In this document: positions 4,291-25,070 of the stretch, piece after piece | How positions within the stretch are numbered: the stretch's first letter is position 1 | How the letters are laid out: every line of letters starts with the position of its first letter | Notes under the pieces: model-generated | Databases searched by the model: none | What the model was told of the DNA's origin: nothing | Seen by the model: the letters and a program-made list of their open reading frames with translations, nothing else | Program-made: the position numbers and the translations under genes | Assembly: GCA_000004985.1 (NCBI GenBank) | Contig: GG738871.1 | Strand: one strand, 5' to 3' | Length of the DNA stretch: 64,000 bases | DNA from: Naegleria gruberi | Taxonomy: Eukaryota

Positions 4291-5856
4291 ATGCCAGAAG
4301 CTGCTGTCCTTTATCAATACCTCAAAAAGCATTCATCACTCTCCGTGTTGGTGGCCGTAGCATCACTCTCCTATTTGACCATTAGTGAAGTTTTAACCCG
4401 ATACTTTAACTTGTCTTCGATGACAAATTCATCTTCATGTCCAAATAATAGTATATTGGGTAATTCACTTTCCGAATATTTAAAACAAGATAAAGAACAT
4501 GTTCATATTGTAGGAGGAGGAATTTCTGGTTTATTGATGGGATTTATGTGTAAGGAATTGAAAATTCCCTTCACAATTTATGAAGCCAATGAAAATTCGT
4601 GTGGTGGCTTGTTGGGAAGTGAAAGAATTGCATTCAATCATGATGAAGAGTGGATGATTGCGGAGAAAGCAGCAAATGGTGTAATGTGGACTCCTCAAGT
4701 GGAATTGTTGTGTGAAAGGATTGGATTGATGGAAAGAGTTTTGTCAACCAAGAAGGAGGCGAAAGCAAGGTTTTTTGTTAGGAATGGAAAGTTGACTCAA
4801 TTTCCTATCAGTTATTTGTCAGTGTTTAATTTGTTGACTTGGAGAATGTGGAAATTGCCAGTGAATAGCTCATTCCAAAGTTTGGATGATTATTTTGGAT
4901 TTTATTTTGGTGAGGAAATTAAGAATCAATTTTTGGAACCTGCATTTGCTGGAATTTTTGGAACGACTCTGAATAATTTATCAGTTTTTGGCACAACTGA
5001 AATATTTCCAAAATTATTGAGTCAATCTTTGAGTTTTCCAATTTCGTTGGTGAAAAACGTAATTTCTGAAGTGTGGAATGGAATATTTGGAAGAAAACAA
5101 ATGAAATCTTCAAATAGGAGAGGTACGCACAGTTTCCAATGTGGTGTTCAAGATTTGATTGACCATTTAGTTCGCCACTTGGGTACAAACAATATCAAGT
5201 TTGGATGTGAAATTAAGGATTTATCTCATTTCCCAAGTGGTCAGAGAGTAATTTTAACAACGCCTGCCTATCAGACATTGAATATTCTTCAAAGTAATCT
5301 CTCTACCACTGAAAATGGTAGAGAATTGATTGAATTATTATCTAAAATTAGATATACTCCAATAGGTACATGTACTGTGATTGTGGAAAGAAGCAAGTGT
5401 CCAAAATTAGAGAAAGGGTTTGGCTGTCTCATTCCTAGAAATGAAGGAATGCACATTTTGGGAGTCCTTTTCAATTCATCTATTTTTGAGAATAGAGTTT
5501 CACATGATGAGAGATTTGCCAGTCTTACTTGTATCATGCAAGATAATGAAAAAAGTGGAAAACTCTCTGATGAAGAGTTATTGGAAAATATTGTTTCTAA
5601 AGAGTTGAGTTTATTATTCATGAACTCAAAGGAGGAAAACATTTCCATTGTAAAGAGCTCAATGAAGAGGTGGAAGTATGGAATTCCAGTTTATGACCAT
5701 CATCTTTACAAGTCTTGGAGCTCAATTCATTCCATCATGAAACAAGATTTACCTAATGTTAATTTATTTGGAAACTATACGGGACAGATTTCTATTCGTG
5801 GTATGATTGGACAAGCTGTTGAGCTTTTGACTAGTTTGGAAAATAGAAAGCATTAG
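4291..5856 (+). CDS. FAD-dependent protoporphyrinogen oxidase (HemY/PPOX)-like oxidoreductase with an N-terminal ~75-aa hydrophobic extension.
   Basis: Rossmann dinucleotide motif HVHIVGGGISGL is present. EPAFAGIFGTTLNNLSV resembles the PPOX GIYAGD region, and the C-terminal NLFGNYTGQISIRGMIGQA resembles the PPOX C-terminus. Single 521-aa ORF, TAG stop. Confidence 0.6.
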   Translation: MPEAAVLYQYLKKHSSLSVLVAVASLSYLTISEVLTRYFNLSSMTNSSSCPNNSILGNSLSEYLKQDKEHVHIVGGGISGLLMGFMCKELKIPFTIYEANENSCGGLLGSERIAFNHDEEWMIAEKAANGVMWTPQVELLCERIGLMERVLSTKKEAKARFFVRNGKLTQFPISYLSVFNLLTWRMWKLPVNSSFQSLDDYFGFYFGEEIKNQFLEPAFAGIFGTTLNNLSVFGTTEIFPKLLSQSLSFPISLVKNVISEVWNGIFGRKQMKSSNRRGTHSFQCGVQDLIDHLVRHLGTNNIKFGCEIKDLSHFPSGQRVILTTPAYQTLNILQSNLSTTENGRELIELLSKIRYTPIGTCTVIVERSKCPKLEKGFGCLIPRNEGMHILGVLFNSSIFENRVSHDERFASLTCIMQDNEKSGKLSDEELLENIVSKELSLLFMNSKEENISIVKSSMKRWKYGIPVYDHHLYKSWSSIHSIMKQDLPNVNLFGNYTGQISIRGMIGQAVELLTSLENRKH

Positions 5857-9283: not shown

Positions 9284-10411
9284 ATGATGAGAATATCAAT
9301 TATTAACAAACAGCAACAGCAACCCTACACCATCATCCTTCTCTGCTCAATTTTTATAATACTCTTCTCTTTTGCCAATTGTTCAAGAGATGAAAGTCTT
9401 GTTTCTTCTTCTTCGGAAGACAAGGTTGTTCATCCCTCACATTTAATGGCCCTTTCTTTTAGTTTAATAGCAGGAATATCGACTTTTATTGGAGGCTTTA
9501 TTATTATTTGCATGGGAAAACCATCGGATGGAAAGATTGGCTACATGATGGGATTTGCTAGTGGAGTCATGATGTTTGTGTCGTTTTTTCATCTCATTCC
9601 TGAGAGTATTGAGGATATTGGAGTGATACCTTCGATTATTTCATTCATTATTGGATCTGTCTTGTTTATTGGAATTAGTAAAGTGTTATTGGGTGATTCG
9701 GATCAAGAAGATTTCATATTGAAACATCATGAAGATGATAATTTGAATCAATCATCTTCAACACTTTCATTGGAAGCTAGAAAGGATTTGAAACAAAATG
9801 ATGGTAATAGTAGCAGAAGTAGTGGAGGAAATAGTAGCTCAGATGAGAGTGATTCTGATTCATTGAAAAAGAAGGAAGTAGTTGATGTGAAAAAACCAGC
9901 CAATGTTACAACCAATAGAAAGAGATTGTATCATACTGCTATTATTGTCACTTTGGGACTTTCATTACATAATCTTCCTGAAGGAATGGCTGTTTATACC
10001 AGTACTTTGACCACTTACAAATTAGGATTAATGATTGCTCTTGCTATTGGATTGCATAATGTTCCTGAAGGTATGGCAGTGGCTATTGCTGTCTATGCTG
10101 CAACCAATTCAATTTATCAATCACTCAAGTATAGTTTAATTTCTGGTTTGTGTGAACCACTTGGAGCTGCTCTCTTTGGTGCAATGATTTATCTTGGATT
10201 TTTACCTCATTACATTGTGTTTTACATGTTGGCTGGTTGTGGAGGTATTATGGTCATTATCTGTTTTACAGAGCTCATACCTACAAGTTTGGAATATTTG
10301 GAGAATGGTCATTCACACATGTCTTCTGTTTTGCATTGTATATTTGCAAATGCTTTGGGCATGCTTGTTATTTATTTGTGTAGCTTATTTATTGAACAAT
10401 ATGAACATTAA
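9284..10411 (+). CDS. ZIP-family (ZupT/SLC39-like) metal cation transporter.
   Basis: Multiple TM helices; duplicated HNLPEGMAV / HNVPEGMAVAIA motif characteristic of ZIP transporters; His/Ser/Asp-rich cytoplasmic loop. Single ORF, 375 aa. Confidence 0.75.
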   Translation: MMRISIINKQQQQPYTIILLCSIFIILFSFANCSRDESLVSSSSEDKVVHPSHLMALSFSLIAGISTFIGGFIIICMGKPSDGKIGYMMGFASGVMMFVSFFHLIPESIEDIGVIPSIISFIIGSVLFIGISKVLLGDSDQEDFILKHHEDDNLNQSSSTLSLEARKDLKQNDGNSSRSSGGNSSSDESDSDSLKKKEVVDVKKPANVTTNRKRLYHTAIIVTLGLSLHNLPEGMAVYTSTLTTYKLGLMIALAIGLHNVPEGMAVAIAVYAATNSIYQSLKYSLISGLCEPLGAALFGAMIYLGFLPHYIVFYMLAGCGGIMVIICFTELIPTSLEYLENGHSHMSSVLHCIFANALGMLVIYLCSLFIEQYEH

Positions 10412-12417: not shown

Positions 12418-13815
12418 TTAATCCATATAATCTGAACAATACGAAAGTACCATACTCTCTAGGGTGCCTCTATGTTTATCCTGGGGACTATGATTAGCAT
12501 GTTTTAAATAGTGTTTCAATGCTTTCCATTTCAAAACCAATTGAAAGAATGATTTTGCTTCCTTATCACTCCTTATTGGCTCCAAATATTCTAAATATGG
12601 TGTAATGTTTAACTCTGATTGAGCTCTCCAACTGTTCAATTGAGTATTGAAACTGAAACCCTTCTCTTGCTCGGTTGAGTTTGGCCAATAATAAACAACT
12701 ATTAGGAAATCATGTCGACCATACTGTTTGGTAAATTTTTCTAAGCATAACATTTCCCTCGATCCATTGGAGGTATATAAATTAATGAACATTACACATT
12801 GAGTATTCGATCCATGTTCTGGTTTGTAATCATCCATTGATATTCCAAAGTTTACCAAATATTTCGCATTATTCCTCTTGCATTTCACATTGATTGGTTT
12901 TCCTTCTGTGCCAAATAAGAGCTGTTTCACAACATTCTCATCATCTGGATTTTTAAAGTAAAAAAATGATTCTTCCTTTGGAATATTTGATGATGAATAA
13001 CTCTTTTCACAAACCTCAAAACATGAGTCAATTGACCTCCAAGTCTTGTTAAATATGAAAATCATTGCCATATCTCTCCAGTTCTTGGCATTGATAAATT
13101 CTAGTGAGAATGGTTGATACTTTTGTACATGCAGTACCAATCTCTTTGGTGACATTCGAAACCAAAACCAAGGATCTCCCAACCAATAATGATACACCAA
13201 TTTACAACTCGCTGAAAAATTACAACAATCACGAATGCTCAAAAAGGACAATATTATTGGAATGATATCAGAATTAATCAATCCCAATTCATGACTCAAT
13301 AGTGTTGAATGTGACTGATCAAATTGTTGTGCATATTCTTCATGTCTTTCATACCATCCTATTAAAATTCAATATTTGTTAATTATCATCAAAAGTTTCA
13401 TATATTTTCATATGTGTGCAATTGATAAATCAATCATGAAAAACAATTGATTAATAAACAAACCTCTCCTGTATTGAATAAATTCCATTGGGAGTGAAAA
13501 AACCCTCTCATCAATCTCCTCTTCTTCATCACTATCATCCGAATCATCATTTCTTTTTATTATTCTTTGTAAAATTGTTTTCCTTCTCGGAGGCTGTTGT
13601 TGATGATGATCACTACTACCAGAATAAGAGGCTGAATTAGAAGATGATGCAACGGCTCCTCTAGAAGATGAAGCTGTTGTTGTTGCTGATCGATTTCTTC
13701 TATTTATGAATGTTGAAAAGAGTGTTCTTCTGCGAAATGTTGGATTTTCATTGGTAGTGGAAGTACGACTGTTTGAATTTGAGGGTGGTGGAATGGAGCT
13801 AGGTTGTTGTCCCAT
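12418..13815 (-). CDS. N-myristoylation-motif (MGQQPSS) F-box-like protein. Exons 13464..13815 and 12418..13358; 105-nt GTTTGT...TAG intron.
   Basis: Ser-rich N-terminus with acidic stretch DDSDDSDEEEEIDE, then the F-box-like IIPIILSFLSIRDCCNFSASCKLVYHYW. The splice QYRRG/WYERHEEYAQQFDQSHSTLLSHELGLI is in frame. Confidence 0.55.
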
Positions 13816-14295
13816 TTTTTTTGATTCAGAGTTCTGGATAGTTCAGGTAGAATTTCGAAAAGTATTTCGAATAAGGAAATATTGTAATGCCACTACAAAT
13901 TCTAACAATTCTTGAAAATCGAATGCTAAAGAAAAATTGAACTTGTAAAGTTCGCAATGTTTTTGTCATTTAGATTTACAAAAATTATCTTCCTTTTGGT
14001 CCATCATATGCTTCTAATCAACAAAAGGACACCGCCACCATTTCGCTTAATCATTTTTATTATTAATTTTAATATTATTATTATTAATATTTTATTAAAA
14101 GAATCCATGCAGAATTGAATTGAATGACATTTACAGCGAATGTACGATCTTTGCAAAGATCGAATTTGGCGGGAGTGCTCCTTTTACATCTCATTACGTT
14201 CAGAGAGACAAGAAAATCATTCAAAAAAATTAAAAGTAACAACAACAGCAGTTTTACTGGTTTTCACTCAAAGTTGAAGAGAAACACACACAATA

Positions 14296-16971
14296 ATGGG
14301 TAATAAGGCTGTGAAACAATTAGGAGATGTTCCAAATGGTGATTTGGATTTGTTATCCTCCACATCTTTTAGAGAGGATTTATTTGATCAATTTCCGACT
14401 GTGATTAGCAAGTTGGAGCTTGGTGTGCAAGAATTTGAACAATTTATTAAATTGTGTGATGATACTGGATCTCTTTATAAATCAATTGCTAAAAAGTTTT
14501 CAGTGAATAAGAAAACAGAGGCGTATGTGTTTGTTCAATCTCATGTTTAAAGTTTTTAATAATTTAGAAGATTACCAACAAATGTTGTGGAAAAACTAAC
14601 TGCTGGTTTGGAATCAATTGCATCGGGATACTTGACTTCTATCAAGGAAATGGATAAATTGGAATTAGATGCTGATGAAGTAAAGAAGGAATTGAATAAT
14701 TATATTAGTATGGCAAAGAAGGAAGAGAAACTTCTCAGTTCTAAACTAGTTGCTGTACGAAAGGAAGAAGAAAAAATCAGAGATAAATTCTTTGATGAGA
14801 AATTGTTTATTCAAGAATCAAAATCAAATCTACTCATTAATTTAAAGGATTTAACTGAGAAAAAGATACTTGATATTAATAAGAAGATTCAAATATCTGA
14901 AGAAAATGTCATTAAACTTGAAAAGGAAGCTGATGTGATCAAGAGAAAGGTGAAGGAGGTTAGCAGTGAATACGATCTCAAACTCAGAAATATTCTTTCA
15001 CACTTGGAATTTATTGATAGAAAGAGATTTAGATACATGAAGGATTTAACAAAACGATTTTCACAAATTCAAACTAATACTGCCAAGATGGTTATTGAAC
15101 AACACGGAGTTGTTGATACAAAGATTGAACTTCTCAACGAAGAGAATGAATTTAACGAGTATATTACATCCGTAAAATCAATCAAACCAACATCCAACAT
15201 TATTTCAAAAGATTCTGAACAAAAATTACTTGTCAGAATTGCTTCTCAAAGTTGGGACTTTATGAAATCAGCATCAGGCACTGTAAAGAAGACCTTTGAA
15301 TCTGGAGAAAAGTTTACAGATTCTTTATTCCCTCCAAAAAACATCTCAATAGATCCAGAAATGGAAGATTCAGTTCTTTGGATGAGAGCTGTCGATTTAC
15401 TTGGCCCATTTAAAATCATTAGCCCTGAAACTGTTCTGGCCTATGATATCAAACCACAAAAATCAATTACTGGATATGAATGGTTGACAAGTGCTTTGGA
15501 ATTCATTGCATCCAAGCCAGCACTTATTGAAAGAATATTTGTTGTCAAGACTCCTAATGATTTGGGAATTTTAGAGCTAAATATGTGCATTGGAGGCGAA
15601 TTTTATAAGATTACCATTGATGATTTCTTCCCAGCAAGCAGAGATGGAAATCCATTGTACTCCTCAACAAAGAGCAAAGACCTTTGGGCTATGGCTATTG
15701 AAAAAGGAGTTGCTAAGGTTTGTGGAACATACAAGAGAATGGCATCATCTTCATTCACAATTGGTGATGCATTTGAATTATTGACAGGTTGTCCAAGCTT
15801 TTACCAACCAGTTGGTATTTCCAACACCAACCACTTGTGGAAGCCAATTTCTAACTTTACTCAAAGCAGAAATATTACTTGCTGTTTAACTCTTCCTTTT
15901 TCTGAAACTACAGCCACTTCAATTGGTTTACACCCAGTTTATCCATATTATTTAGTGGGATGCTTGGAAATGAACGGAAAGAAAATTGTTAAATTGAAAT
16001 GTACTAGAGGACCAGCAGAGTGGAAGGGTGATTATTCTGAATCAGATAGAGTCAACTGGACTCCAGAATACAGAAATGCACTCGGTGTGGATCAATCAGC
16101 ACAAGATGGATACTTCTTTATGCCATTCTCAGATTTTTGCAAGTATTTTGATAGTATGTCATCTTTCAAATATGATCCACTTTTAGCCAGATTCCAACAT
16201 AGAATTCCATACCCAAGCCCTTCTGATTCAAGCCCTCCAACCAATACAGTCACAGAAGTTTCCATTGAAACAGATCAAAAGGAAGTTTACTTTGGTCTCC
16301 ACCAAAAACATGACAGATTCAAGGGTTCTCCAGCTAGATCTGCCATGGGTTTCATTGTTGTTAGAAAGCAAGGTAGTAAGATTGTTGGTGCCGTTAGATT
16401 ATCCACAAATCCTTGTAATTATTCTGAAGGATTATCTTTAAGAGCTGGAGATTATCAAATTATTCCAATTGTTGCACAAAATGCTATTTCTGTAGATGTG
16501 TTTGGATCTGGAAATGCACCAAATCTTACAGTTGTTGTTCATGCTAGAGGTAATGTTAGAATGAAAACTGCTGAGAAGGTATCTATCAAGATGACTCCAA
16601 TTCAAAAATCAATGGTTGAGCAATTCTTGTCTGGAGTTATTCCAAAGAGTCCTTCCCTTATTATGGAAGAAGCTAAGTCTGCTCCACAATCTCCATCCGT
16701 TGTTGGTAACTTTACACCATTACAGGAAGAAATAACTGAAGCAGATAACTTTTTGAATCAAGAAATCACTCCAGAAGTTACTGCAACTCAAACAATTGAT
16801 GAATCACTCCAAGAAGAAGACTCAACACAAGTCATTGAGAAGGAAGAACTACAAGCTGAACAAACCGTAGAAGAACCACACGTAGAAGAAACAACCGATT
16901 TGGCTCAAGTAAAGGAAGACGATAATGTTATTCCCTCTGACGACCAAGAGCACTTTGAAGAATTTGAATAA
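14296..16971 (+). CDS. Calpain-like protein lacking the catalytic Cys (pseudoprotease), with N-terminal MGNKAV myristoylation motif and coiled coil. Probable 39-42-nt intron near 14529..14567.
   Basis: The C-terminal half aligns to the calpain protease core: ITGYEWLTSALEFIASKPALIERIFVV corresponds to QGxLGDCWLLAA (C to E, D to Y), and LWAMAIEKGVAKVCGTYKRMASSSFTIGDAFELLTGCP corresponds to LWvaLlEKAYAKlhGsYeaL.gG...eAledlTGg. ORFs 14296..14550 and 14587..16971 are in the same frame, separated by one stop that a GTTTGTT...TAG mini-intron removes. Confidence 0.65.
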
Positions 16972-17070: not shown

Positions 17071-20000
17071 TTATTTGAGGATAGTGTTGAGTTGCTCAGC
17101 AAGCTTTGAAGGGAAAAATCTCTTTGGTATTTCCAAAGAGTTGATCTTACCATGACCATCAAGCATATCAAATTCAAAAACATTAGCTTGGAGTGGCTTC
17201 TTGGATCCTAAATCAGTGAAATAGTTAAAGTCAACTAGAGGTTTGGATAAAACATTGTCCAGTGTTGGAATCTTCTTGCCAATGAGTTCTTCAATTTCGC
17301 GTTGAGAGAAGGTGGTATTTGAATACTCATCTGTTTCATAATTAGAATAGATATAGGCAATTTGTTGGACTGAAAGTTCTGGACAAATCTCTTGTCTTGT
17401 ACCTTCATCTTCAAGCAATTGCTTTTGAGCAATAACACAAATATCAGCTGCTTGTCTAGAAAGTGTAAAGTAAACTTGCAACTTTTCTTCATCAAAGTCC
17501 TCATTGTCATGGAATTGTTTTCTCAAAGATTGAACAACATTCTTAGAGTTGAACCAATTTTCAAGGAAGGCAACACTCATCTTAACTGAAAGACCCTTGG
17601 AGGCAGAAGCATCCTTGATAAAGTGATTGAATATAATTGAATCCAAACACATGGCAACATTTTCAAAAATGTGATTAACAACACGTTTGTCCAGCTTTTG
17701 TTGTTCAACACGTTGGTAGATTTCAGTAAGAAGTGAAATACACAATCTCATATCTGGACCACCATCTGTTGATTTGGATGAAGCTTGTTTTGGATTGAAC
17801 ACCGCCTTCACTAATCTGTCCTTCAAAAATTGGACAATCTTGGAACAGAGATTGAGATAGGCTCTAGCAAGAATATCAGTAAGAGCATCAGTAAATTCTT
17901 GCATGTCGGCAACATAAACTTCATCATCCTCAAGTACAGAGTATACTGGTGGTTCGGCCAAAATACGTTCTTCTTCCTTTGCCAAAATTGCTTGAACAGT
18001 GACACCTTCCATTGTTTCGAATGAGTGATGAACTTGATTTTCGTTTCCACTTGATTGATAGAGGTTCAAAAGTCTGTATAATACATTAACCCAATACATC
18101 ATCATCTCCTCATCTCTGGCATATCTATCTACAACGTAGGACAGAGCCTTGATAATATTTGTACAGAAGAATTTACTCGATTCTGGAGAGAACTTTAGAG
18201 TTGAGAGGAATAAAACCTTGGTTGGAGTTGGAACTTTAGAGCTTCCCAAATAGTCACTAGGTTGACTGTAGATGATTGCAGATTCAATAATGAACTTCTC
18301 TACATCAGAATTTTGCAATGATGATATTTGCTCTTTCAATTTCTTGGTTTCTTGTTCATTACCTGTCTTTGACTGTTTAAAATAATAATAATAAAAATAT
18401 TGGTTAGTAAGTTGAATAAAAATAAATAGAAAAGTGATAATTTGTTATCAGTTAGTTTTTAAGTTAGAAAAGTGTGAGTGTAAGTGTAAAAGTTAGAAAT
18501 GATATTTGCCTTTTGGTTTTCATCAAATTGTTTTTGAACTTTTTCAAGTCTTCTCTTGTCTTGCTCCAATTCATCAATTTGTTCTTCCAATTCGGTTATT
18601 CTGTTCTTTCCCTTCTTTAATTTGTTTTCCAATTCCGAGAATTTATCATCCATGTCCATAACTTTTTGGTTTAATTCCTCATTTTCTTCCTTCAACTTTT
18701 CAATTTCCTCCTCAAGTGCAAACTTTGACTTTTTATCCTCATTAACAGAATTCTATAATAATTAATAAGTTAGTACATAAAAATTCAAATTAAATAAAAA
18801 AACATAGTGAGAATTGTGGGTGATGTGTTAGTGTAAAAGTGTGTGTGATATTTGCCTTTTGTTGTTGTTCAATTTCTTCAATTCTTTCCTCAAGTTCTCT
18901 GATCAAAGTATCCTTCTCCTTGAGCTCATCTTCAGTATTCTTACTCTTTTCACTACTACCCTTCTTCAATTTTGCAATTTGATTACCAAGCTCATCAACT
19001 TCTTCTTGAAGTTGATTACGTTCTTTTTCTATCTTGGACAATTTAGAATCAACACTGTCTAGATCTTGTTCCAACTCTTCAATCTTTGAATCCTTTTGGC
19101 TATTGTCATCTTCCAACACTTGAAGTTGTCCAGAAAGCTTCTTGCATTCCATGGCTTGCTTTTTAGAATCTTCTTCAGCCTTTGCGACTTGTTGTCTGAG
19201 AGTTTCAAGTTCCTCAACCTTTGAATCAATAAGTTCATTCAATTTTATCACTTGGGTTTCACTCTCTGTAAGCTTCTTTTCTGTATCACCTAGTTTCTTT
19301 TCCGTTTCTCCAAGCTTCTTTTCGAGAGTTGTTTTTTGCTTCTTGACAATATCATCCATGGAAGCAGAATTCTTTGACAAACTTTCAATTTCTAAAATTT
19401 TTTCAGATAGGTCTTTTTCCTTTTCTTTGATCTTTTCTTCCAATTGCTGATTCTTGCTCTTGATAGTGGTAATCTCAATATCTAGATTCTTTCTCTCTTC
19501 TCTTAATGATTCGACAAGTTTGTTCAAATCCACTTCAGTTGACTATTTAAAGGTCATATGATATAAATTGTTAGTATGTTGTTTAAAATAAATGTGAAAA
19601 AAAAATGTGACATCACAGTTAGTACAAGTTAGTTCGCACCCAATAAAAAATCTAGCCTTTGGCTTTCATTCTTAAAGGGACAAATTGTTAGTTCTGGTTA
19701 GATACTTAAAGTTTTTGAAAAATATCCCGCACTCTTTGCAGAGATTGAGTGTGTAGTGTAAGATATGTACCTTTAGTTTTCTTGCCTCGGAATTAATATC
19801 AGAAACCTCATTAAATGTTTCTAAAACAGTAGAGAAGTGGCGACTAGCTTCTTGTTTCAGTTCCCCAATCGTGTTTTTCAAATGTGTAATTTCCTCAAGC
19901 AACAATTCTTCCACTTGCTTGCTAGCTTCTTTCAATTTCTTGCATTCTTCTTTCAAGTCTTCAACTTGTTGTTTGTAGCTCTCAATATCCTTATCTTTTT

Positions 20001-22958
20001 CTTCGCAGCTCTTCTCTATTTGTTTGGTTTCACTAATAGCAGCTTCTAGCTCTGAGGTAACATCTTCTACCTTCTTCTTATAAGATTCAAGGGATTGGTT
20101 GAGGTTCTCTAACTCTTGAGTAAGGTTTCTGTTCTTCTCTTCAACTTTTGAACATTTTTCTTGGTATTCTGAAAGCTTGTTTTCGATTTGAATAACAACT
20201 TCGTCAGTGTGTTGAGATGATTGCTTCTTGACATCTTCCACTCTTTCTTTAAGTTCAGAAATTTCTTTTTGGAGAGAATCTTGCATTTCTGCCTTGCTCT
20301 TTTCTGAGGATTGCCATTTTTGGGTGGCCTTTTCAACATCTTGTGAGTGTGCATTCTTTTCCTTCTTTAATTCATCCTTAAGACGTTCAACCTCATCAGT
20401 AACCTTCTTCAAATCTAATGCGAGTGCTTCCTTTCCTGATTTCAGCATTGACATCTTTGTTGAATATTCATTATCCTTGGAGAGGTATTCCTGTTTGAGG
20501 TTTTCCATTTGTTTCTTGAGAGATTCCTTTTCCTTGGTAGCAGCTTCCTCTTGTTTGTTGCGAGTTTCTATGGATTGTGTCAATTGAATGTTCAAAGCTG
20601 ATATCTTGGATGCCAAGTCATCTCTTTCCTTCTTGATATCTTGTAAATTTCTTTCCAATGATTCATTCTTTTCCTGTATCATAGTATTGGTATTTTGAAT
20701 TTGTACAATATTGGAGGTTAATACTTCGGATACAGCAGAAATCTCTTCCTTAACTTCATTTTCTAATGTTTGCTTAGCCTTCATAATACTCTCATCAGAA
20801 ATACCGTTTCTCATATTTTCAACAATATCAGAAAATGAGTCAGAGTGAGTAAGAATGCTTGAAAGCTCATCACTATTACCCAATTGGGTTGCTGTTTGAA
20901 GAAGGGTGTTTTGAATCTTAGTCTTGAGTGTTCTAAACTCCAAAAGACAAGAAAGAAGTAGCTCTCTATGCTTAGTTGCAGAAGATATTTCCTTACTTTG
21001 TTGAGAAACCAATTCAGCCAAACCCTTTCTTTCTTCCTTCAATCTATTAATGTCTGTTTCAAGTTCTTCAATTTCTACCTTTCTCTTTGTCTCTTTGGAA
21101 CTAAATTCTTTCTTTAGCTGATCAATCTCATTTTCATAACGAGTTTTGCTTTCTGACAAGTCTTTTTCATTGGTTACCTTAAATATATGAAGTTAGGAAT
21201 TATTCTATATCTCAATTATAAAAATGAACTTAACAGGGTGAGACTCTTTTCAGTTAGTTAGGTGTGAGTGTAATTAGTGTCAAGTGTACGTGTCGTGTGG
21301 GTTGATGTTTATACTTTACCTTTTGTGATTTCATATCTTCTTGAAGTTTTTCATTTTCTCTCTTCATTTTATCCATTTGCTTCTTGTCTGCAATGAGTTG
21401 TTCCTCATATTCCTTAGCTTGTTCTCTCATATTCTTGATTTCTTCTTCCAAATTTTGAACCTTTTCGTCATATTCGTATGAGAGGGATTGTTTTTGCTTT
21501 GAAGATGATGCACGACCATTTTCATTTTCTTCTTCAAGGTCCTTGATTCTATCCTTCAACTTTTTAATTTCTGTTTCATTCTTTTGAGCTTGCTTTTGCT
21601 TTAATTGAAGTTCAAAGAGCTTGCTATCAACTTCTTGTTGAGATTCCTGAGCCTTGTCTCTTTGTTTTATCAAATCTTCATTTTCTCTTTGGAGATTTTT
21701 AAGTTTTTCAACAGCTGAATCTCTTTCTTTTTGAACCTTTTTAAGCTATTAAATGTCAATATTCTCAATCTTTGTACACCAACTTACCAAATTAGTCTTG
21801 TCATTTTCTTTGAGAGTCTTGACTTGTTTCAAGAGCAATTTTACCTTTCTCTTGAGGTGATTAATTTGTCTTTCAAATTCAGCAGTATCTACATGTGATG
21901 AAACTTGAGCAGATTCATCAGTTTCAGTGTGCTGATTATTTTCTTCATCCTCATCTTCGGTTCCCTTTTCAACTTGTTCATCCTCTTCTTCTGGTTCTTC
22001 ATCGTGGTGTTCCTCAGGATGTTCTTCTTCGTCCTTTATTTGCTCTTCGATATCTCTTTCAATATCCTCTTCATTTACTTCAACTTCAGGTTCATGATGA
22101 TCCTCTTCGTCATAATTATGTTCCTCATGATCATTATAGTCGTGCTCTTCGTGTTCTTCCTCATCCTTATCCTCACCAATATCCTACAAATTGATTGTTA
22201 ACAATTACTACAATAATTAAACATACTTGATTTGTTCCTTCATCTTCATCGACTTCATCATTACCTCCAGTATAAGTACTAACAGCAGTAAAATCATCAT
22301 CACTTAATTTTGTTACAATCATACAAGTTCTAGTAGAATACTTACTTTGGATTTTGATCCTTTAAACATTTAGAATTGATAACAAGTTTCAATTTGGCCT
22401 TGCTACTATCCTTTGTTGGCATGTCTATTTCCTTTGTGGATGTCTTTTCAGAATCTTCATCTACAAACAATGCCAAATCCAAAGTTTCCTTCACAAGTGT
22501 ATTTGTTTTTCCATTCTTTCCTTTCTCTTCCAATGTGATTTGAAGATCTTTCTTTTGGAATTTACCCTTTTTAAAATAGAGAGTTCCATTGAATTTAAAT
22601 GTTCTATTCCAAATAATACGGGTACCTTCAATCTTGTTAAATTCGGTTTCACCCTTTCTCTTTTTTCCTCTTTTCCAAAATATCTATTATTGTGATTGTA
22701 TCATAAAACGTTGATGATATTATAATGATGATGACAGCGTTGTTGATGTTTGATAAGGAATTTAATGATGATGGGTATTATCATAGTGATGATATTTAAA
22801 TATTATGATGAAAATAATAAACATACAGCATAGGTACATTCATCCTTCTTCTTTTCCTTCACTTCGGTCAAGTGATCAATAGAAAGGTTAAATTGAAACT
22901 TGAAAGCCTCCCTATTCGTAACCTGTTGGGCTACTTTGCTTTGTAACTTTTTAAACAT
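17071..22958 (-). CDS. Large multi-exon gene: N-terminal NT-C2-like domain, acidic region, ~1000 aa coiled coil, and a C-terminal myosin-V-type DIL/globular-tail cargo-binding domain, with no motor domain. Proposed exons (minus strand): 22827..22958, 22346..22683, 22227..22302, 21788..22183, 21320..21745, 19771..21178, 18856..19542, 18510..18751, 17071..18372.
   Basis: Exons 1-2 read MFKKLQSKVAQQVTNREAFKFQFNLSIDHLTEVKEKKKDECTYA/IFWKRGKKRKGETEFNKIEGTRIIWNRTFKFNGTLYFKKGKFQKKDLQITLEEKGK... (NT-C2-like). The last exon reads ...LLTEIYQRVEQQKLDKRVVNHIFENVAMCLDSIIFNHFIKD... (DIL-like). All junctions were checked for frame continuity. Introns are 42-230 nt with GTAAGT/GTATGT/GTACAT donors, except two putative GC donors (AAG|GCAAAT) at 18504-18509 and 18850-18855. 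Confidence 0.5.
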
Positions 22959-23357: not shown

Positions 23358-25070
23358 TTATTTTTCAACTAATGGTATTAAGAAATGGTTTGGTATTTTA
23401 CAATCGAAATAGGTTTCAGTCATTCTGATTTTTCTGAGTTTTTCAAACTTTTCTCGTTTAGGAAAAAAGCAAAATCCGTTCTGTTTAGCAGCAATTTCGC
23501 TTATTGTTTCATCTTTACGATGCAATGGAGCATGATATAATAAAAATCCATTCTTTTTAACCAATTCCATTACAATATTTCGATTTTTTAAAATTAAAAA
23601 ATTCATTTCTTCTCTTCCAATTTTCACATTTGGATTACGGACTTTCCATAGCCTTTCGTCATTGGTCAACCTATCTGAAGCTCCAAAAAAAGACCCTTTA
23701 TATTTGACTGCTGCCTCAACAACCTCAATATCGTTCTTTAGTTCGCTTGCCTCAATAAGAACACTTTTTAAAATTGAATCATTTTTCAATAATCGAATAA
23801 TGAATTGCTTGTCTCTCTTCAGAGTTGGATCTAAGAGTCTCATAAAATTCTGACAATTATTGTTATTTTCCAAAAGGGATTCAATAAATTCTTTGTCATG
23901 TTGTAACTCATTAGAGGCAAATAGGAAAGCCTTACACTCTTTCTTTACAGCATGTGTTACGATAGATTTGTCATTAATCAACACATCAGATGCAGCTTCC
24001 AAAGCTGAAGGAAAATTTGATATGGCTTCCCATACAATTTCATAATCATTTCTGTAAATATAGGGACAATAACAAAGCACGCCCCCTGATTTTCTCACAG
24101 TTTGCAAAACCAAATCTCTGTCAATACTATCCTCTTTCATCTTTGGAAAAATATACTCTATTCCATTGACGGCCAATTGTAACATCTCTCTAACAAATAG
24201 ATCATCATTCTTTAACTCTTCAGATGCATACATCATTGCACTTCCATGGATTAATATTGATCTTTTTACAATTTCTCTATGATTTCGGAATTCAGGTTTG
24301 ATAAATTCAATAATATTTGCAAATAAAGAACATTCCAAAATAAAGTCAACATCTTGCTTCAGATCATCGGTTGCATATTTAAATTGATATCGATTTTTTT
24401 TCACACAATTCAAAACCAATTCTCTATTGGATTTTAGCTCATCAGGGAATGATTCTAGACATGAGAAATGTTTCAAAATTTCAATGTCATTATGAAATTC
24501 TTTGGGTAAAAGGTGTTTTAGATCGGTCGAATTCATTCTTGCTATCATCTCTTTATGCGTGAAAAACAATCTATCACTTGCCAATTCATCTAAATAGGGT
24601 AGTAATGTCTCTCCGATTTTTACTTGGTAAGGCTCAATATTAGAAAGGACGAATTCTCTATTATTTCTCAATTCTTTTGACGCAAATTGAAACATGTTTG
24701 GAAAAATCATACAACAATCTTTCACAATTTGTGGATTGTTTTTAACATGAAAAGGTGAATCTTCACATAGCTGAAAATAATATTCCAATCTGAGGTTATA
24801 TTCTAAATACCAATAAAAAAACTTTTGTGCTATTGGATTTTTCTTGCCATTAGAAATTACAAACTCAAAAACTTCTTTATCATCAGTAAATTCGAGAGGC
24901 AAAAATTTGAATCTGTCTGGGTTCTCAAAATGTAAACGTCTGTTTTCGAGATAAAGAAGAAATCCTTTTTGTTGAGTTTGAAATTTTCGGATTAAAAGTT
25001 TGACTTGATGAGAAATGCAATGATCAAAATCTATCAGATAGAGAGTGGTGTGATGTGTGCTTCCAGACAT
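23358..25070 (-). CDS. DUF4116-repeat protein.
   Basis: About 12 degenerate ~35-aa repeats of the form ELKNNREFVLSNI / DELKSNRELVLNCVKKNRYQFKYATDDLKQDVDFIL / ELKNDIEVVEAAVKYKG. Single 570-aa ORF. Confidence 0.6.
   Translation of the reverse strand: MSGSTHHTTLYLIDFDHCISHQVKLLIRKFQTQQKGFLLYLENRRLHFENPDRFKFLPLEFTDDKEVFEFVISNGKKNPIAQKFFYWYLEYNLRLEYYFQLCEDSPFHVKNNPQIVKDCCMIFPNMFQFASKELRNNREFVLSNIEPYQVKIGETLLPYLDELASDRLFFTHKEMIARMNSTDLKHLLPKEFHNDIEILKHFSCLESFPDELKSNRELVLNCVKKNRYQFKYATDDLKQDVDFILECSLFANIIEFIKPEFRNHREIVKRSILIHGSAMMYASEELKNDDLFVREMLQLAVNGIEYIFPKMKEDSIDRDLVLQTVRKSGGVLCYCPYIYRNDYEIVWEAISNFPSALEAASDVLINDKSIVTHAVKKECKAFLFASNELQHDKEFIESLLENNNNCQNFMRLLDPTLKRDKQFIIRLLKNDSILKSVLIEASELKNDIEVVEAAVKYKGSFFGASDRLTNDERLWKVRNPNVKIGREEMNFLILKNRNIVMELVKKNGFLLYHAPLHRKDETISEIAAKQNGFCFFPKREKFEKLRKIRMTETYFDCKIPNHFLIPLVEK

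What the first reader, a model, noticed from the sequence alone, without database searches (positions are those of the whole stretch)
14296..16971. N-myristoylation-motif calpain-like pseudoprotease (catalytic Cys replaced by Glu)
The calpain core is recognisable, but the GDCW catalytic motif reads GYEW. The protein starts MGNKAV (Gly2, Lys5: a myristoylation consensus) and has a coiled-coil N-terminal half. Acylated, catalytically dead calpain-like proteins are a hallmark of kinetoplastid cytoskeleton and flagellum proteins. Finding the same arrangement here is notable and may hint at phylogenetic affinity or convergent scaffold use.
Basis: partly seen in the sequence, partly recalled or inferred. 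Interest (0 to 1): 0.6.

Follow-up and report, generated by a model that had tools for sequence, protein, structure and literature searches.

The report
Membrane-anchored F-BAR dead calpain, Naegleria
This Naegleria gruberi gene encodes a calpain-family protein that has lost all three catalytic residues and carries an unrecognised membrane-curvature (F-BAR) domain behind a conserved Met-Gly lipidation-type start, so it is most likely a membrane-attached scaffold and not a protease.

Summary
Window 14296-16971 (+) is a two-exon gene with a 45-nt intron, identical to Naegleria gruberi NAEGRDRAFT_79947 / D2VGX6. Residues 325-606 match Peptidase_C2 (E 5.8e-38). All three catalytic positions are replaced: Cys to Glu380, His to Tyr534, Asn to Cys554. 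A 2012 survey already listed this protein as "CysPc only, active-site residues: None", so the dead-calpain status is known.

The new part is the N-terminus. The "coiled-coil half" is a divergent F-BAR domain. A family profile hits FBP17 at E 3.5e-17, and the AlphaFold model (pLDDT 87.7) matches Imp2, Hof1 and FBP17 at TM 0.75-0.79. Pfam misses it, and two calpain-architecture surveys do not list it.

The Met-Gly start is conserved in every full-length calpain-type and stand-alone member seen. N. gruberi has Val at position 6, which is off the NMT consensus; its orthologues (MGNKATK) fit fully.

Named members of the family are all Heterolobosea. The family includes an active-triad paralogue, a second independently inactivated paralogue, and small F-BAR-only proteins.

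There is no DUF1935 domain and no palmitoylation Cys. It is therefore not a kinetoplastid-type CALP, and I read the resemblance as convergent.

Verdict: a new variant of a known kind, of moderate interest.

The parts
14296..14522 (+). Exon 1 (aa 1-75 plus 2 nt): the Met-Gly start and F-BAR helix 1
   Evidence: First ATG after an in-frame TGA at 14275. The N-terminus is shared with the N. lovaniensis and N. fowleri orthologues and with JGI model D2VGX6.
14296..14316 (+). MGNKAVK, candidate N-myristoylation heptapeptide
   Evidence: Fits MG[^DEFRWY]X[^DEKR][ACGST][KR] except for Val at position 6 (motif as quoted in PMC9018777). Orthologues read MGNKATK. Paralogues and stand-alone relatives read MGAVMAK, MGGIVAS, MGGIVSK, MGNSKSQ and MGNTSSE.
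14523..14567 (+). 45-nt intron (GTATGT...TTTAG) with in-frame stops; alternative acceptor 3 nt downstream (TAGAAG)
   Evidence: Using the proximal AG keeps Arg77, which is invariant in orthologues. The JGI model uses the distal AG. A third paralogue has a 48-nt intron at the same place.
14568..16971 (+). Exon 2 including the stop codon
   Evidence: 100% identical to P0001 except for one residue.
14368..15180 (+). Divergent F-BAR domain (aa ~25-280, spans the intron)
   Evidence: The orthologue profile finds heterolobosean F-BAR-like+2xSH3 proteins at E 1e-27 to 1e-9. The family profile hits FBP17 2EFL at 3.5e-17 over its full length, plus GAS7, syndapin, PSTPIP1, Cdc15, Imp2, CIP4, PACSIN and FCHo2. 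The AF2 model has pLDDT 87.7. All top Foldseek PDB hits are F-BAR domains, with Imp2 at TM 0.79 and rmsd 2.5 A. Coordinates.
15181..15312 (+). Basic linker (aa 281-324)
   Evidence: Low conservation, 32-36% identity to orthologues, and pI 9.6.
15313..16158 (+). Calpain CysPc (Peptidase_C2) domain without a catalytic triad
   Evidence: Pfam E 5.8e-38. PDB calpain cores match at 5e-14 and weaker. 51-52% identity to Naegleria orthologues.
15478..15480 (+). GAA = Glu380 at the catalytic Cys position
   Evidence: Orthologues have Ala, Ala and Asp here.
15940..15942 (+). TAT = Tyr534 at the catalytic His position
   Evidence: Orthologues have Gln.
16000..16002 (+). TGT = Cys554 at the catalytic Asn position (NPWG reads CTRG)
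   Evidence: Orthologues have Ala, Ser and Thr.
16159..16635 (+). All-beta C-terminal domain, probably a divergent calpain domain III (C2L/CBSW)
   Evidence: Shared with active paralogues. hhalign against Calpain_III-positive domains gives probability 84%, E 7e-6. There is no direct Pfam or PDB sequence hit.
16636..16968 (+). Acidic, poorly conserved tail (aa 766-876), predicted disordered
   Evidence: pI 4.05, 31 D+E against 4 K+R, 19-27% identity to orthologues. pLDDT below 30 and no secondary structure in the full-length model.

Best explanation
The gene is Naegleria gruberi NAEGRDRAFT_79947. It encodes a modular, non-proteolytic member of the calpain superfamily with this order of parts:
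- a flexible Met-Gly N-terminus, which is a candidate N-myristoylation site
- a divergent F-BAR domain
- a basic linker
- a calpain CysPc domain with all three catalytic residues replaced and the loop before the nucleophile position lengthened
- a C2L-like beta domain
- an acidic disordered tail

Shown here: the domain identities, the loss of the triad, conservation of the dead domain well above that of the linker and tail, and the existence of a family, all of whose named members are heterolobosean, with active, dead and F-BAR-only members.

Inferred mechanism: the F-BAR domain dimerises and binds anionic or curved membrane. A myristate on Gly2 probably helps; this is more certain in N. fowleri and N. 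lovaniensis than in N. gruberi. This places the inert CysPc-C2L unit at the cell cortex or on an endomembrane. There it acts as a binding or scaffolding module for proteins that an active calpain would cut, or for cortical cytoskeleton. It does not cleave them.
For: Identity of the gene:
- A neighbouring window ORF is an exact match to N. gruberi XP_002676626.
- The gene sits in the same 90% identity cluster as XP_002676539 / D2VGX6.

CysPc domain and triad:
- Peptidase_C2 matches at E 5.8e-38.
- The triad positions read E/Y/C in the window, A/Q/A, A/Q/S and D/Q/T in orthologues, and C/H/N in paralogues.
- Zhao et al. 2012 Table S1 independently lists D2VGX6 as 'None' for active-site residues.

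F-BAR domain.

Purifying selection on the dead domain: N. gruberi against N. fowleri identity is F-BAR 63%, CysPc 51%, C2L 45%, linker 36% and tail 19%.

Met-Gly start: it is present in every calpain-type and stand-alone family member with a complete N-terminus, and absent from the SH3-type members.

C2L-like domain: hhalign probability 84%.

Precedent: dead calpains are used as structural proteins, for example kinetoplastid CAP5.5 (PMC4181241) and calpamodulin and other non-peptidase homologues (PMC4631099).
Against: - No localisation, lipidation, dimerisation, membrane-binding or expression data exist for this protein. No paper in the library names it.
- Val6 departs from the NMT position-6 consensus, and S6V was a poor substrate in G-alpha-o Nt7.
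- The orthologue-only N-terminal profile does not reach solved F-BAR domains directly. The link is transitive, through heterolobosean SH3-type relatives and a structure model built on that family alignment.
- The F-BAR region has no net positive charge (48 K+R against 48 D+E). Membrane affinity is therefore assumed from the fold and not demonstrated.
- The full-length structure model was poor (pLDDT 42), so the state of the substrate cleft is unknown.
Confidence: 0.6

Rival explanations
1. It is a heterolobosean orthologue or relative of the kinetoplastid acylated calpain-like proteins (CAP5.5/CALPs/SKCRPs), inherited from a common discoban ancestor. It would then be a cytoskeleton or flagellum protein of the same family.
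For: Both lineages are in Discoba. Both have Met-Gly starts, degenerate triads and small N-terminal-domain-only relatives.
Against: There is no DUF1935 / domain I-K match even at E<=1. The N-terminal module is an all-helical F-BAR domain. There is no Cys next to Gly2 for palmitoylation. The CysPc clusters at 0.995 support with Naegleria paralogues that keep C/H/N, and the triad was lost twice inside that clade. The nearest named non-Naegleria CysPc hits are a ciliate protein and proteins labelled calpain-15, with no kinetoplastid name among them, although few of the hits carry any name. No kinetoplastid sequence could be put in the tree.
Confidence: 0.05
2. It has the same architecture, but the N. 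gruberi protein is not myristoylated. The Met-Gly start is a relic in this species, and any membrane targeting is done by the F-BAR domain alone, or the protein acts on the cytoskeleton away from membranes.
For: Val6 is outside [ACGST], and S6V gave cytosolic/nuclear G-alpha-o Nt7. There is no polybasic stretch or Cys after the motif.
Against: The Gly2, Asn3, Ala5 and Lys7 positions all fit the motif. Orthologues have the isosteric Thr6. Four paralogous lineages at about 25-30% identity all keep MG plus a small residue at position 3. Naegleria NMT specificity is untested.
Confidence: 0.3
3. It is still a peptidase that uses unconventional residues, for example Cys554 or Glu380 as the nucleophile or base.
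For: Some calpain homologues with altered triads keep activity (PMC7912814). Asn-to-Asp variants can be active (PMC4631099). N. gruberi happens to have a Cys at the Asn position.
Against: None of the three replacement residues is conserved among orthologues: E/A/A/D, Y/Q/Q/Q and C/A/S/T. The NPWG Trp is also lost, and the loop before the nucleophile position carries an insertion.
Confidence: 0.03
4. It is a decaying pseudogene or a gene-model artefact.
For: There is an in-frame stop inside the finding's coordinates if the sequence is read unspliced.
Against: The stop lies in a canonical 45-nt GT-AG intron whose position is shared with a paralogue. An intact full-length ORF exists in N. gruberi, N. 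fowleri and N. lovaniensis, plus a start-truncated copy on an environmental contig. Domain-wise conservation is 45-63% against 19% in the tail.
Confidence: 0.02

Closest known systems
Kinetoplastid calpain-like proteins (T. brucei CAP5.5/CAP5.5V, CALPs) and SKCRPs
   Same: N-terminal Met-Gly acylation-type start. CysPc with a degenerate triad, used non-proteolytically. Accompanied by small proteins that consist only of the N-terminal domain with the acylation motif (PMC4181241, compared).
   Different: The kinetoplastid N-terminal module is DUF1935 / domain I-K, whereas here it is an F-BAR domain. Kinetoplastid proteins are often dually acylated (Gly2 plus Cys), and here there is no Cys. Triad loss here arose within a Naegleria paralogue family.
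N. gruberi NAEGRDRAFT_67588 (D2VFD5), the active-triad paralogue
   Same: Same order of parts: MGAVMAK start, F-BAR, CysPc, C2L-like domain. 31% identity in the F-BAR and 41% in the CysPc.
   Different: It keeps Cys/His/Asn and NPWG, lacks the acidic tail, and is presumably a real membrane-targeted protease.
F-BAR proteins (FBP17/CIP4, Imp2/Cdc15/Hof1, PSTPIP1, PACSIN, FCHo2, GAS7)
   Same: Fold and profile-level sequence similarity across the whole ~270-residue domain.
   Different: In the solved examples hit here the F-BAR domain belongs to proteins named as formin-binding, Cdc42-interacting, phosphatase-interacting, RhoGAP, kinase or cytokinesis proteins, and from general knowledge their partner domains are SH3, RhoGAP, kinase or muHD. 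I found no F-BAR fused to a calpain domain, or preceded by a Met-Gly lipidation motif, in the two calpain surveys or in the literature search. Pfam FCH does not detect this domain.
Animal non-peptidase calpains (calpamodulin/CAPN6, Drosophila calpain C, androglobin)
   Same: CysPc fold retained with the nucleophile, and often the His, replaced. Presumed protein-binding roles (PMC4631099).
   Different: They have different accessory domains and no F-BAR. The losses are independent and occur in a distant lineage.

Membership tests
Calpain superfamily (MEROPS C2 / Pfam Peptidase_C2) | Significant full-length match to the CysPc profile | tested here: met
   E 5.8e-38, profile positions 1-293 of 297. 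PDB calpain cores match at 5e-14 and weaker.
Calpain superfamily (active peptidases) | Cys/His/Asn catalytic triad | tested here: not met
   Glu380, Tyr534 and Cys554. The literature lists 'None'. It is therefore a non-peptidase homologue.
Calpain superfamily (classical) | Ca2+-binding residues of the protease core (rat calpain-2 D96, E175, E292, D299, E323; PMC4631099) | tested here: inconclusive
   From my manual reading of the alignments, the D96, E175 and E292 equivalents are kept (D369, D447, E560), D299 is Glu, and the E323 equivalent is Tyr591. The E323 equivalent is also lost in the active paralogues.
Calpain superfamily (classical) | Domain III (C2L/CBSW) after CysPc, and a PEF domain IV | tested here: inconclusive
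   There is no Calpain_III or EF-hand Pfam hit and no PDB hit. hhalign to Calpain_III-positive domains gives 84%, E 7e-6. The PEF domain is absent.
Kinetoplastid CALP/SKCRP family | Kinetoplastid-specific N-terminal domain I-K (Pfam DUF1935) | tested here: not met
   Only Peptidase_C2 is reported at E<=1. The N-terminus is F-BAR.
Kinetoplastid CALP/SKCRP family | N-terminal dual acylation motif (Gly2 plus a nearby Cys) | tested here: not met
   MGNKAVK has Gly2 but no Cys in the first 50 residues.
F-BAR (FCH-BAR/EFC) domain proteins | Sequence-profile similarity to known F-BAR domains over the whole domain | tested here: met
   The family profile A3 hits FBP17 at 3.5e-17 plus about 20 other F-BAR structures. 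The link is indirect: the orthologue-only profile finds none but joins the family at E down to 1e-27.
F-BAR (FCH-BAR/EFC) domain proteins | F-BAR fold (long three-helix antiparallel bundle, ~270 residues) | tested here: met
   AF2 model pLDDT 87.7 and pTM 0.74. The 25 best Foldseek PDB hits are all F-BAR or FCH-type domains. Imp2 TM 0.79, Hof1 0.75, FBP17 0.76.
F-BAR (FCH-BAR/EFC) domain proteins | Crescent homodimer that binds or shapes anionic membranes | not testable with these tools
   A monomer model only, with no biochemical data.
N-myristoyltransferase substrates | MG[^DEFRWY]X[^DEKR][ACGST][KR] (Castrec 2018, as quoted in PMC9018777) | tested here: inconclusive
   Positions 2, 3, 5 and 7 fit. 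Position 6 is Val, which is off consensus and was a poor substrate in one test. The N. fowleri and N. lovaniensis orthologues (MGNKATK) fit fully.
N-myristoyltransferase substrates | Myristate demonstrated on Gly2 | not testable with these tools
   Needs labelling or mass spectrometry.

The most novel reading that the evidence does not exclude
Heterolobosea have built their own lipid-anchored calpain system on an F-BAR chassis. One active F-BAR-calpain delivers proteolysis to curved membranes such as phagocytic or endocytic cups, the contractile vacuole or the cleavage furrow. Two independently inactivated F-BAR-pseudocalpains and the Met-Gly F-BAR-only proteins tune it. They could do so by co-assembling on the same membrane patches or by forming F-BAR heterodimers. 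This would be a functional convergence with the kinetoplastid CALP/SKCRP system, using an unrelated membrane module.
Probability: 0.15. Interest if true: 0.7.

Novelty: new variant of a known kind. Interest (0 to 1): 0.5.

Why it matters
Dead calpains are common, and this one was already catalogued as lacking the triad. The domain context is what changes the picture.

A calpain core fused to an F-BAR domain behind a conserved Met-Gly start is an architecture that neither of the two broad calpain-domain surveys lists. It gives a concrete, testable idea of where this protein family works, namely on membranes.

The family also offers a natural experiment in one tractable amoeba. N. gruberi has an active copy, two independently inactivated copies and F-BAR-only derivatives. 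That lets one ask what a protease fold does after it stops cutting.

It is also a second discoban case of "acylated dead calpain plus small N-terminal-only relatives", built from a different N-terminal domain. This bears on how the kinetoplastid CALP/SKCRP system should be interpreted. The dead copy is conserved in the pathogen N. fowleri (FDP41_013378).

Tried and rejected
- **Full-length AlphaFold model from three orthologues.** pLDDT was 42, so it was unusable for fold search.
- **Orthologue-only N-terminal profile against PDB.** No F-BAR hit. The link needed the wider family.
- **C-terminal domain profile against PDB.** Nothing at E<=10. Single-sequence Pfam scans hit Calpain_III only for the two ciliate-type members.
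- **Word-indexed homologue searches.** The full-length protein and the family alignment returned only 7 and 5 proteins, perhaps because the low-complexity tail took up the candidate list. They could not show the distribution outside Naegleria.
- **Literature search by locus tags and accessions.** No paper found. Two Naegleria papers had no held supplements for expression look-up.
- **Exact look-up of P0034 for genomic context.** It failed. The near-identical P0015 worked.
- **Kinetoplastid sequences in the tree.** I could not obtain any, so independence from kinetoplastid CALPs rests on domain architecture and on within-Naegleria paralogy. The tree itself is a quick NJ tree with few outgroups.
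- **Pseudogene and residual-activity readings.** Considered and rejected; see the rival explanations.
Full report
**What is at the coordinates**

The window is eukaryotic DNA of about 33% G+C. One 570-aa ORF elsewhere in the window (23361-25070, minus strand) is identical, residue for residue, to Naegleria gruberi XP_002676626.

The finding's gene falls in the same 90% identity cluster as N. gruberi XP_002676539 / EFC43795 / UniProt D2VGX6, locus NAEGRDRAFT_79947. That entry is annotated "predicted protein", is 875 aa, and lies on the same 417,575-bp scaffold. N. gruberi is a heterolobosean, placed within Discoba.

**Gene model**

- Read straight through, 14296-16971 contains in-frame stops.
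- They lie in a 45-nt intron, GTATGT...TTTAG, at 14523-14567.
- Splicing gives an 876-aa protein.
- The ATG at 14296 has an in-frame TGA 21 nt upstream.
- The acceptor is a TAGAAG tandem. The JGI model uses the distal AG and so lacks Arg77.
- Arg77 is invariant in the orthologues, which favours the proximal AG.

**Calpain domain and catalytic residues**

Pfam finds a single family, Peptidase_C2, at residues 325-606. The match is E 5.8e-38 and covers 1-293 of 297 profile positions. Nineteen solved calpain sequences match at E<=0.01, the best being calpain-8 (2NQA) at 4.9e-14.

In those alignments, and in alignments with much closer paralogues, the active site reads as follows.

| Catalytic position | Window protein | Local motif change |
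|---|---|---|
| Cys | Glu380 | GDCW becomes GYEW |
| His | Tyr534 | |
| Asn | Cys554 | NPWG becomes CTRG |

The loop just before the nucleophile position carries a two-residue insertion.

Orthologues carry different residues at the same three positions.

| Orthologue | Residues at Cys / His / Asn positions |
|---|---|
| N. lovaniensis C9374_012892 | A / Q / A |
| N. fowleri FDP41_013378 | A / Q / S |
| Environmental relative P0003 | D / Q / T |

No alternative catalytic residue is conserved, so the loss predates the divergence of these species. This part is not new. Zhao et al. 2012 (PMC3563603), Additional file 1, lists "XP_002676539 D2VGX6 CysPc 875 None".

The dead domain is nevertheless under constraint. 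Identity between the N. gruberi and N. fowleri proteins, by region, is as follows.

| Region | Identity |
|---|---|
| F-BAR region | 63% |
| CysPc | 51% |
| C-terminal beta domain | 45% |
| Linker | 36% |
| Acidic tail | 19% |

**The N-terminal half is an F-BAR domain**

1. A profile of the three orthologous N-termini was searched with HMMER against 1.84 billion representative proteins. It found only 23 proteins at E<=0.001.
2. Every hit that carries a name is heterolobosean: N. gruberi, N. fowleri, N. lovaniensis, Acrasis kona or Pharyngomonas kirbyi.
3. Several hits are "helical domain plus two SH3 domains" proteins with sub-threshold FCH matches.
4. A 16-sequence family profile hits the solved F-BAR/EFC domain of FBP17 (2EFL) at E 3.5e-17 across the whole domain. 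GAS7, syndapin, PSTPIP1, Cdc15, Imp2, CIP4, Rgd1, PACSIN1-3, FCHo2, Hof1 and Syp1 follow.
5. An AlphaFold2 model of window residues 1-290, built with that alignment, has mean pLDDT 87.7 and pTM 0.74. Its long helices span residues 30-70, 82-166 and 173-263.
6. The best Foldseek hits for this model in the PDB are all F-BAR domains. Imp2 gives TM 0.79 and rmsd 2.5 A over 267 columns. Hof1, FBP17 and CIP4 give TM about 0.75-0.76.

There is a caveat. The orthologue-only profile does not reach solved F-BARs by itself, and Pfam FCH gives no hit for this protein even at E<=1. That probably explains why both calpain-architecture surveys list this protein's family as "CysPc" only. Neither includes FCH/F-BAR among the partner domains. 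An automated UniProt name, "BAR domain-containing protein", does exist for one stand-alone N. fowleri relative.

**C-terminal parts**

Residues 607-765 are shared with the active paralogues. They contain an L-x-L-R-A-G-x-Y-x-I-I-P motif. Direct Pfam and PDB searches find nothing. A profile-profile comparison with Calpain_III-positive domains gives 84% probability, E 7e-6. I call this "probably a divergent C2L/domain III".

Residues 766-876 are acidic (pI 4.05), poorly conserved and without predicted secondary structure.

**The Met-Gly start**

MGNKAVK has Gly2, Asn3, Ala5 and Lys7. These fit the current NMT recognition motif M-G-[^DEFRWY]-X-[^DEKR]-[ACGST]-[KR]. Val6 does not fit. In G-alpha-o Nt7 an S6V change gave a largely cytosolic, poorly myristoylated construct (PMC9018777).

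On the other side, every calpain-type or stand-alone family member with a complete N-terminus starts Met-Gly.

| Protein | N-terminus |
|---|---|
| N. fowleri and N. lovaniensis orthologues | MGNKATK (full fit) |
| Active paralogue NAEGRDRAFT_67588 | MGAVMAK |
| Third paralogue | MGGIVAS |
| F-BAR-only, N. gruberi 79910 and N. fowleri 013293 | MGGIVSK |
| F-BAR-only, N. lovaniensis 014250 | MGNSKSQ |
| F-BAR-only, N. fowleri 010694 | MGNTSSE |

None of the SH3-type F-BAR relatives with a complete N-terminus starts with Met-Gly. Retention of this start across paralogues that are only about 25-30% identical argues that it is functional. For the N. gruberi copy specifically I rate myristoylation at roughly 50-65%.

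**The family**

N. gruberi has at least three F-BAR-calpains.

- **The window gene.** No triad residue is left.
- **NAEGRDRAFT_67588 / D2VFD5.** Cys/His/Asn and NPWG are intact.
- **A third copy.** I assembled it from a near-identical environmental contig, L003: 761 aa, triad positions Ser/Ala/Asn. It matches the "N only" entry D2VGR9 of Zhao et al.. It has a 48-nt intron at the same position as the window gene's intron.

In an NJ tree of the CysPc domain the results were as follows.

- The F-BAR-calpains form a clade in 99.5% of bootstraps.
- The fully dead orthologue group has 100% support.
- The third copy groups with the active paralogues at 78%.

The triad was therefore lost at least twice. 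The tree has few outgroups and contains no kinetoplastid sequences.

In L003 the third copy lies head-to-head with the F-BAR-only gene, with 180 bp between the two start codons (3503 and 3684). Their N-termini are nearly the same, MGGIVASKP against MGGIVSKQAP. This suggests that the small protein arose by inverted duplication of its neighbour's 5' end.

**Relation to kinetoplastids**

[quoted passage not shown] Many have dual acylation motifs and degenerate triads. SKCRPs consist of domain I-K alone (PMC4181241; PMC7912814; PMC3563603 Table S1).

- The window protein has no DUF1935 match and no Cys near Gly2.
- Its N-terminal module has a different, all-helical fold.
- Its closest relatives are Naegleria paralogues with an intact triad.
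- Only Naegleria-type proteins cover both the F-BAR and CysPc parts. These hits came from a search with the active paralogue. In that search, the nearest named CysPc domains outside Naegleria are a ciliate protein and proteins labelled calpain-15.

It is therefore not a member of the kinetoplastid family. The parallel is still real: a Met-Gly start, dead CysPc copies, and small N-terminal-only derivatives. I read it as convergence within Discoba.

**How it most likely works**

Shown here: the architecture, the catalytic inactivation, the constraint on the dead domain, and the family context.

Inferred: the F-BAR domain dimerises and binds membrane, possibly reinforced by myristate on Gly2. The inert CysPc-C2L unit then serves as a binding or scaffold module at that membrane. 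The acidic tail may be regulatory.

I did not find an orthologue of the active paralogue in N. fowleri or N. lovaniensis, but the search tools were limited. The idea that the dead copy regulates the active one is therefore only a possibility.

**Verdict**

- The pseudoprotease status was already published in a supplementary table.
- The F-BAR identity, the conserved lipidation-type start and the structure of the family appear to be undescribed. No paper in the library names the gene or links F-BAR with a calpain domain in Naegleria.
- This is a new variant of a known kind, and I score interest at 0.5.

Noticed in passing
window 14563-14571: The intron acceptor is a tandem TAGAAG (NAGNAG). The proximal AG keeps Arg77, which is invariant in orthologues. 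The JGI/RefSeq model D2VGX6 uses the distal AG and is one residue shorter.
   Followed up: partly
L003 1170-4562 (N. gruberi-like contig from sample ERR1078381): A third F-BAR-calpain paralogue lies on the minus strand: MGGIVAS start, triad positions Ser/Ala/Asn, and a 48-nt intron at the same site as the window gene. It sits head-to-head, 180 bp between start codons, with the 292-aa F-BAR-only gene that starts MGGIVSK. The layout looks like an inverted duplication of the 5' end and a possible bidirectional promoter pair.
   Followed up: partly
window 13408-13815 (-) and 12418-13299 (-): The upstream neighbour on the opposite strand begins MGQQPSS, which has Gly2 and Ser6 and so also looks like a myristoylation-type start. 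It is followed by low-complexity Ser/Thr/Asn sequence. The next ORF downstream on that strand may be a further exon of the same gene. Neither ORF has a Pfam hit.
   Followed up: no
window 17071-21159 (-): A convergent neighbour has its stop codon 100 nt from the calpain gene's stop. It has a DIL (dilute, myosin-V cargo-binding type) domain, preceded by long coiled-coil ORFs. No myosin head was seen in the ORFs examined.
   Followed up: no
P0046 (N. fowleri FDP41_011068) and P0067 (N. gruberi): Another Naegleria calpain group shares the CysPc plus C2L-like core, with GDCW intact. It carries a different N-terminal region of about 450 residues with no recorded Pfam family. Naegleria therefore combines one calpain core with several N-terminal modules (F-BAR, this unknown one, and TPR).
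   Followed up: no
L001/L002/L003/L004 (ENA ERZ929261, run ERR1078381, PRJEB11402): A sample labelled as a metagenome contains contigs nearly identical to N. gruberi NEG-M genes. The copy of this gene differs by one residue in 794 aa. Its prokaryote-style gene calls cut off the first exon.
   Followed up: no
window 23361-25070 (-): NAEGRDRAFT_68205 is a 570-aa protein built from eight DUF4116 repeats (E 3.7e-67). It gave the exact match used to identify the organism.
   Followed up: partly
window 9284-10408 (+) and 4291-5853 (+): These are ordinary neighbours: a ZIP zinc transporter and a flavin amine-oxidase-like protein. There is no obvious functional link to the calpain gene.
   Followed up: no
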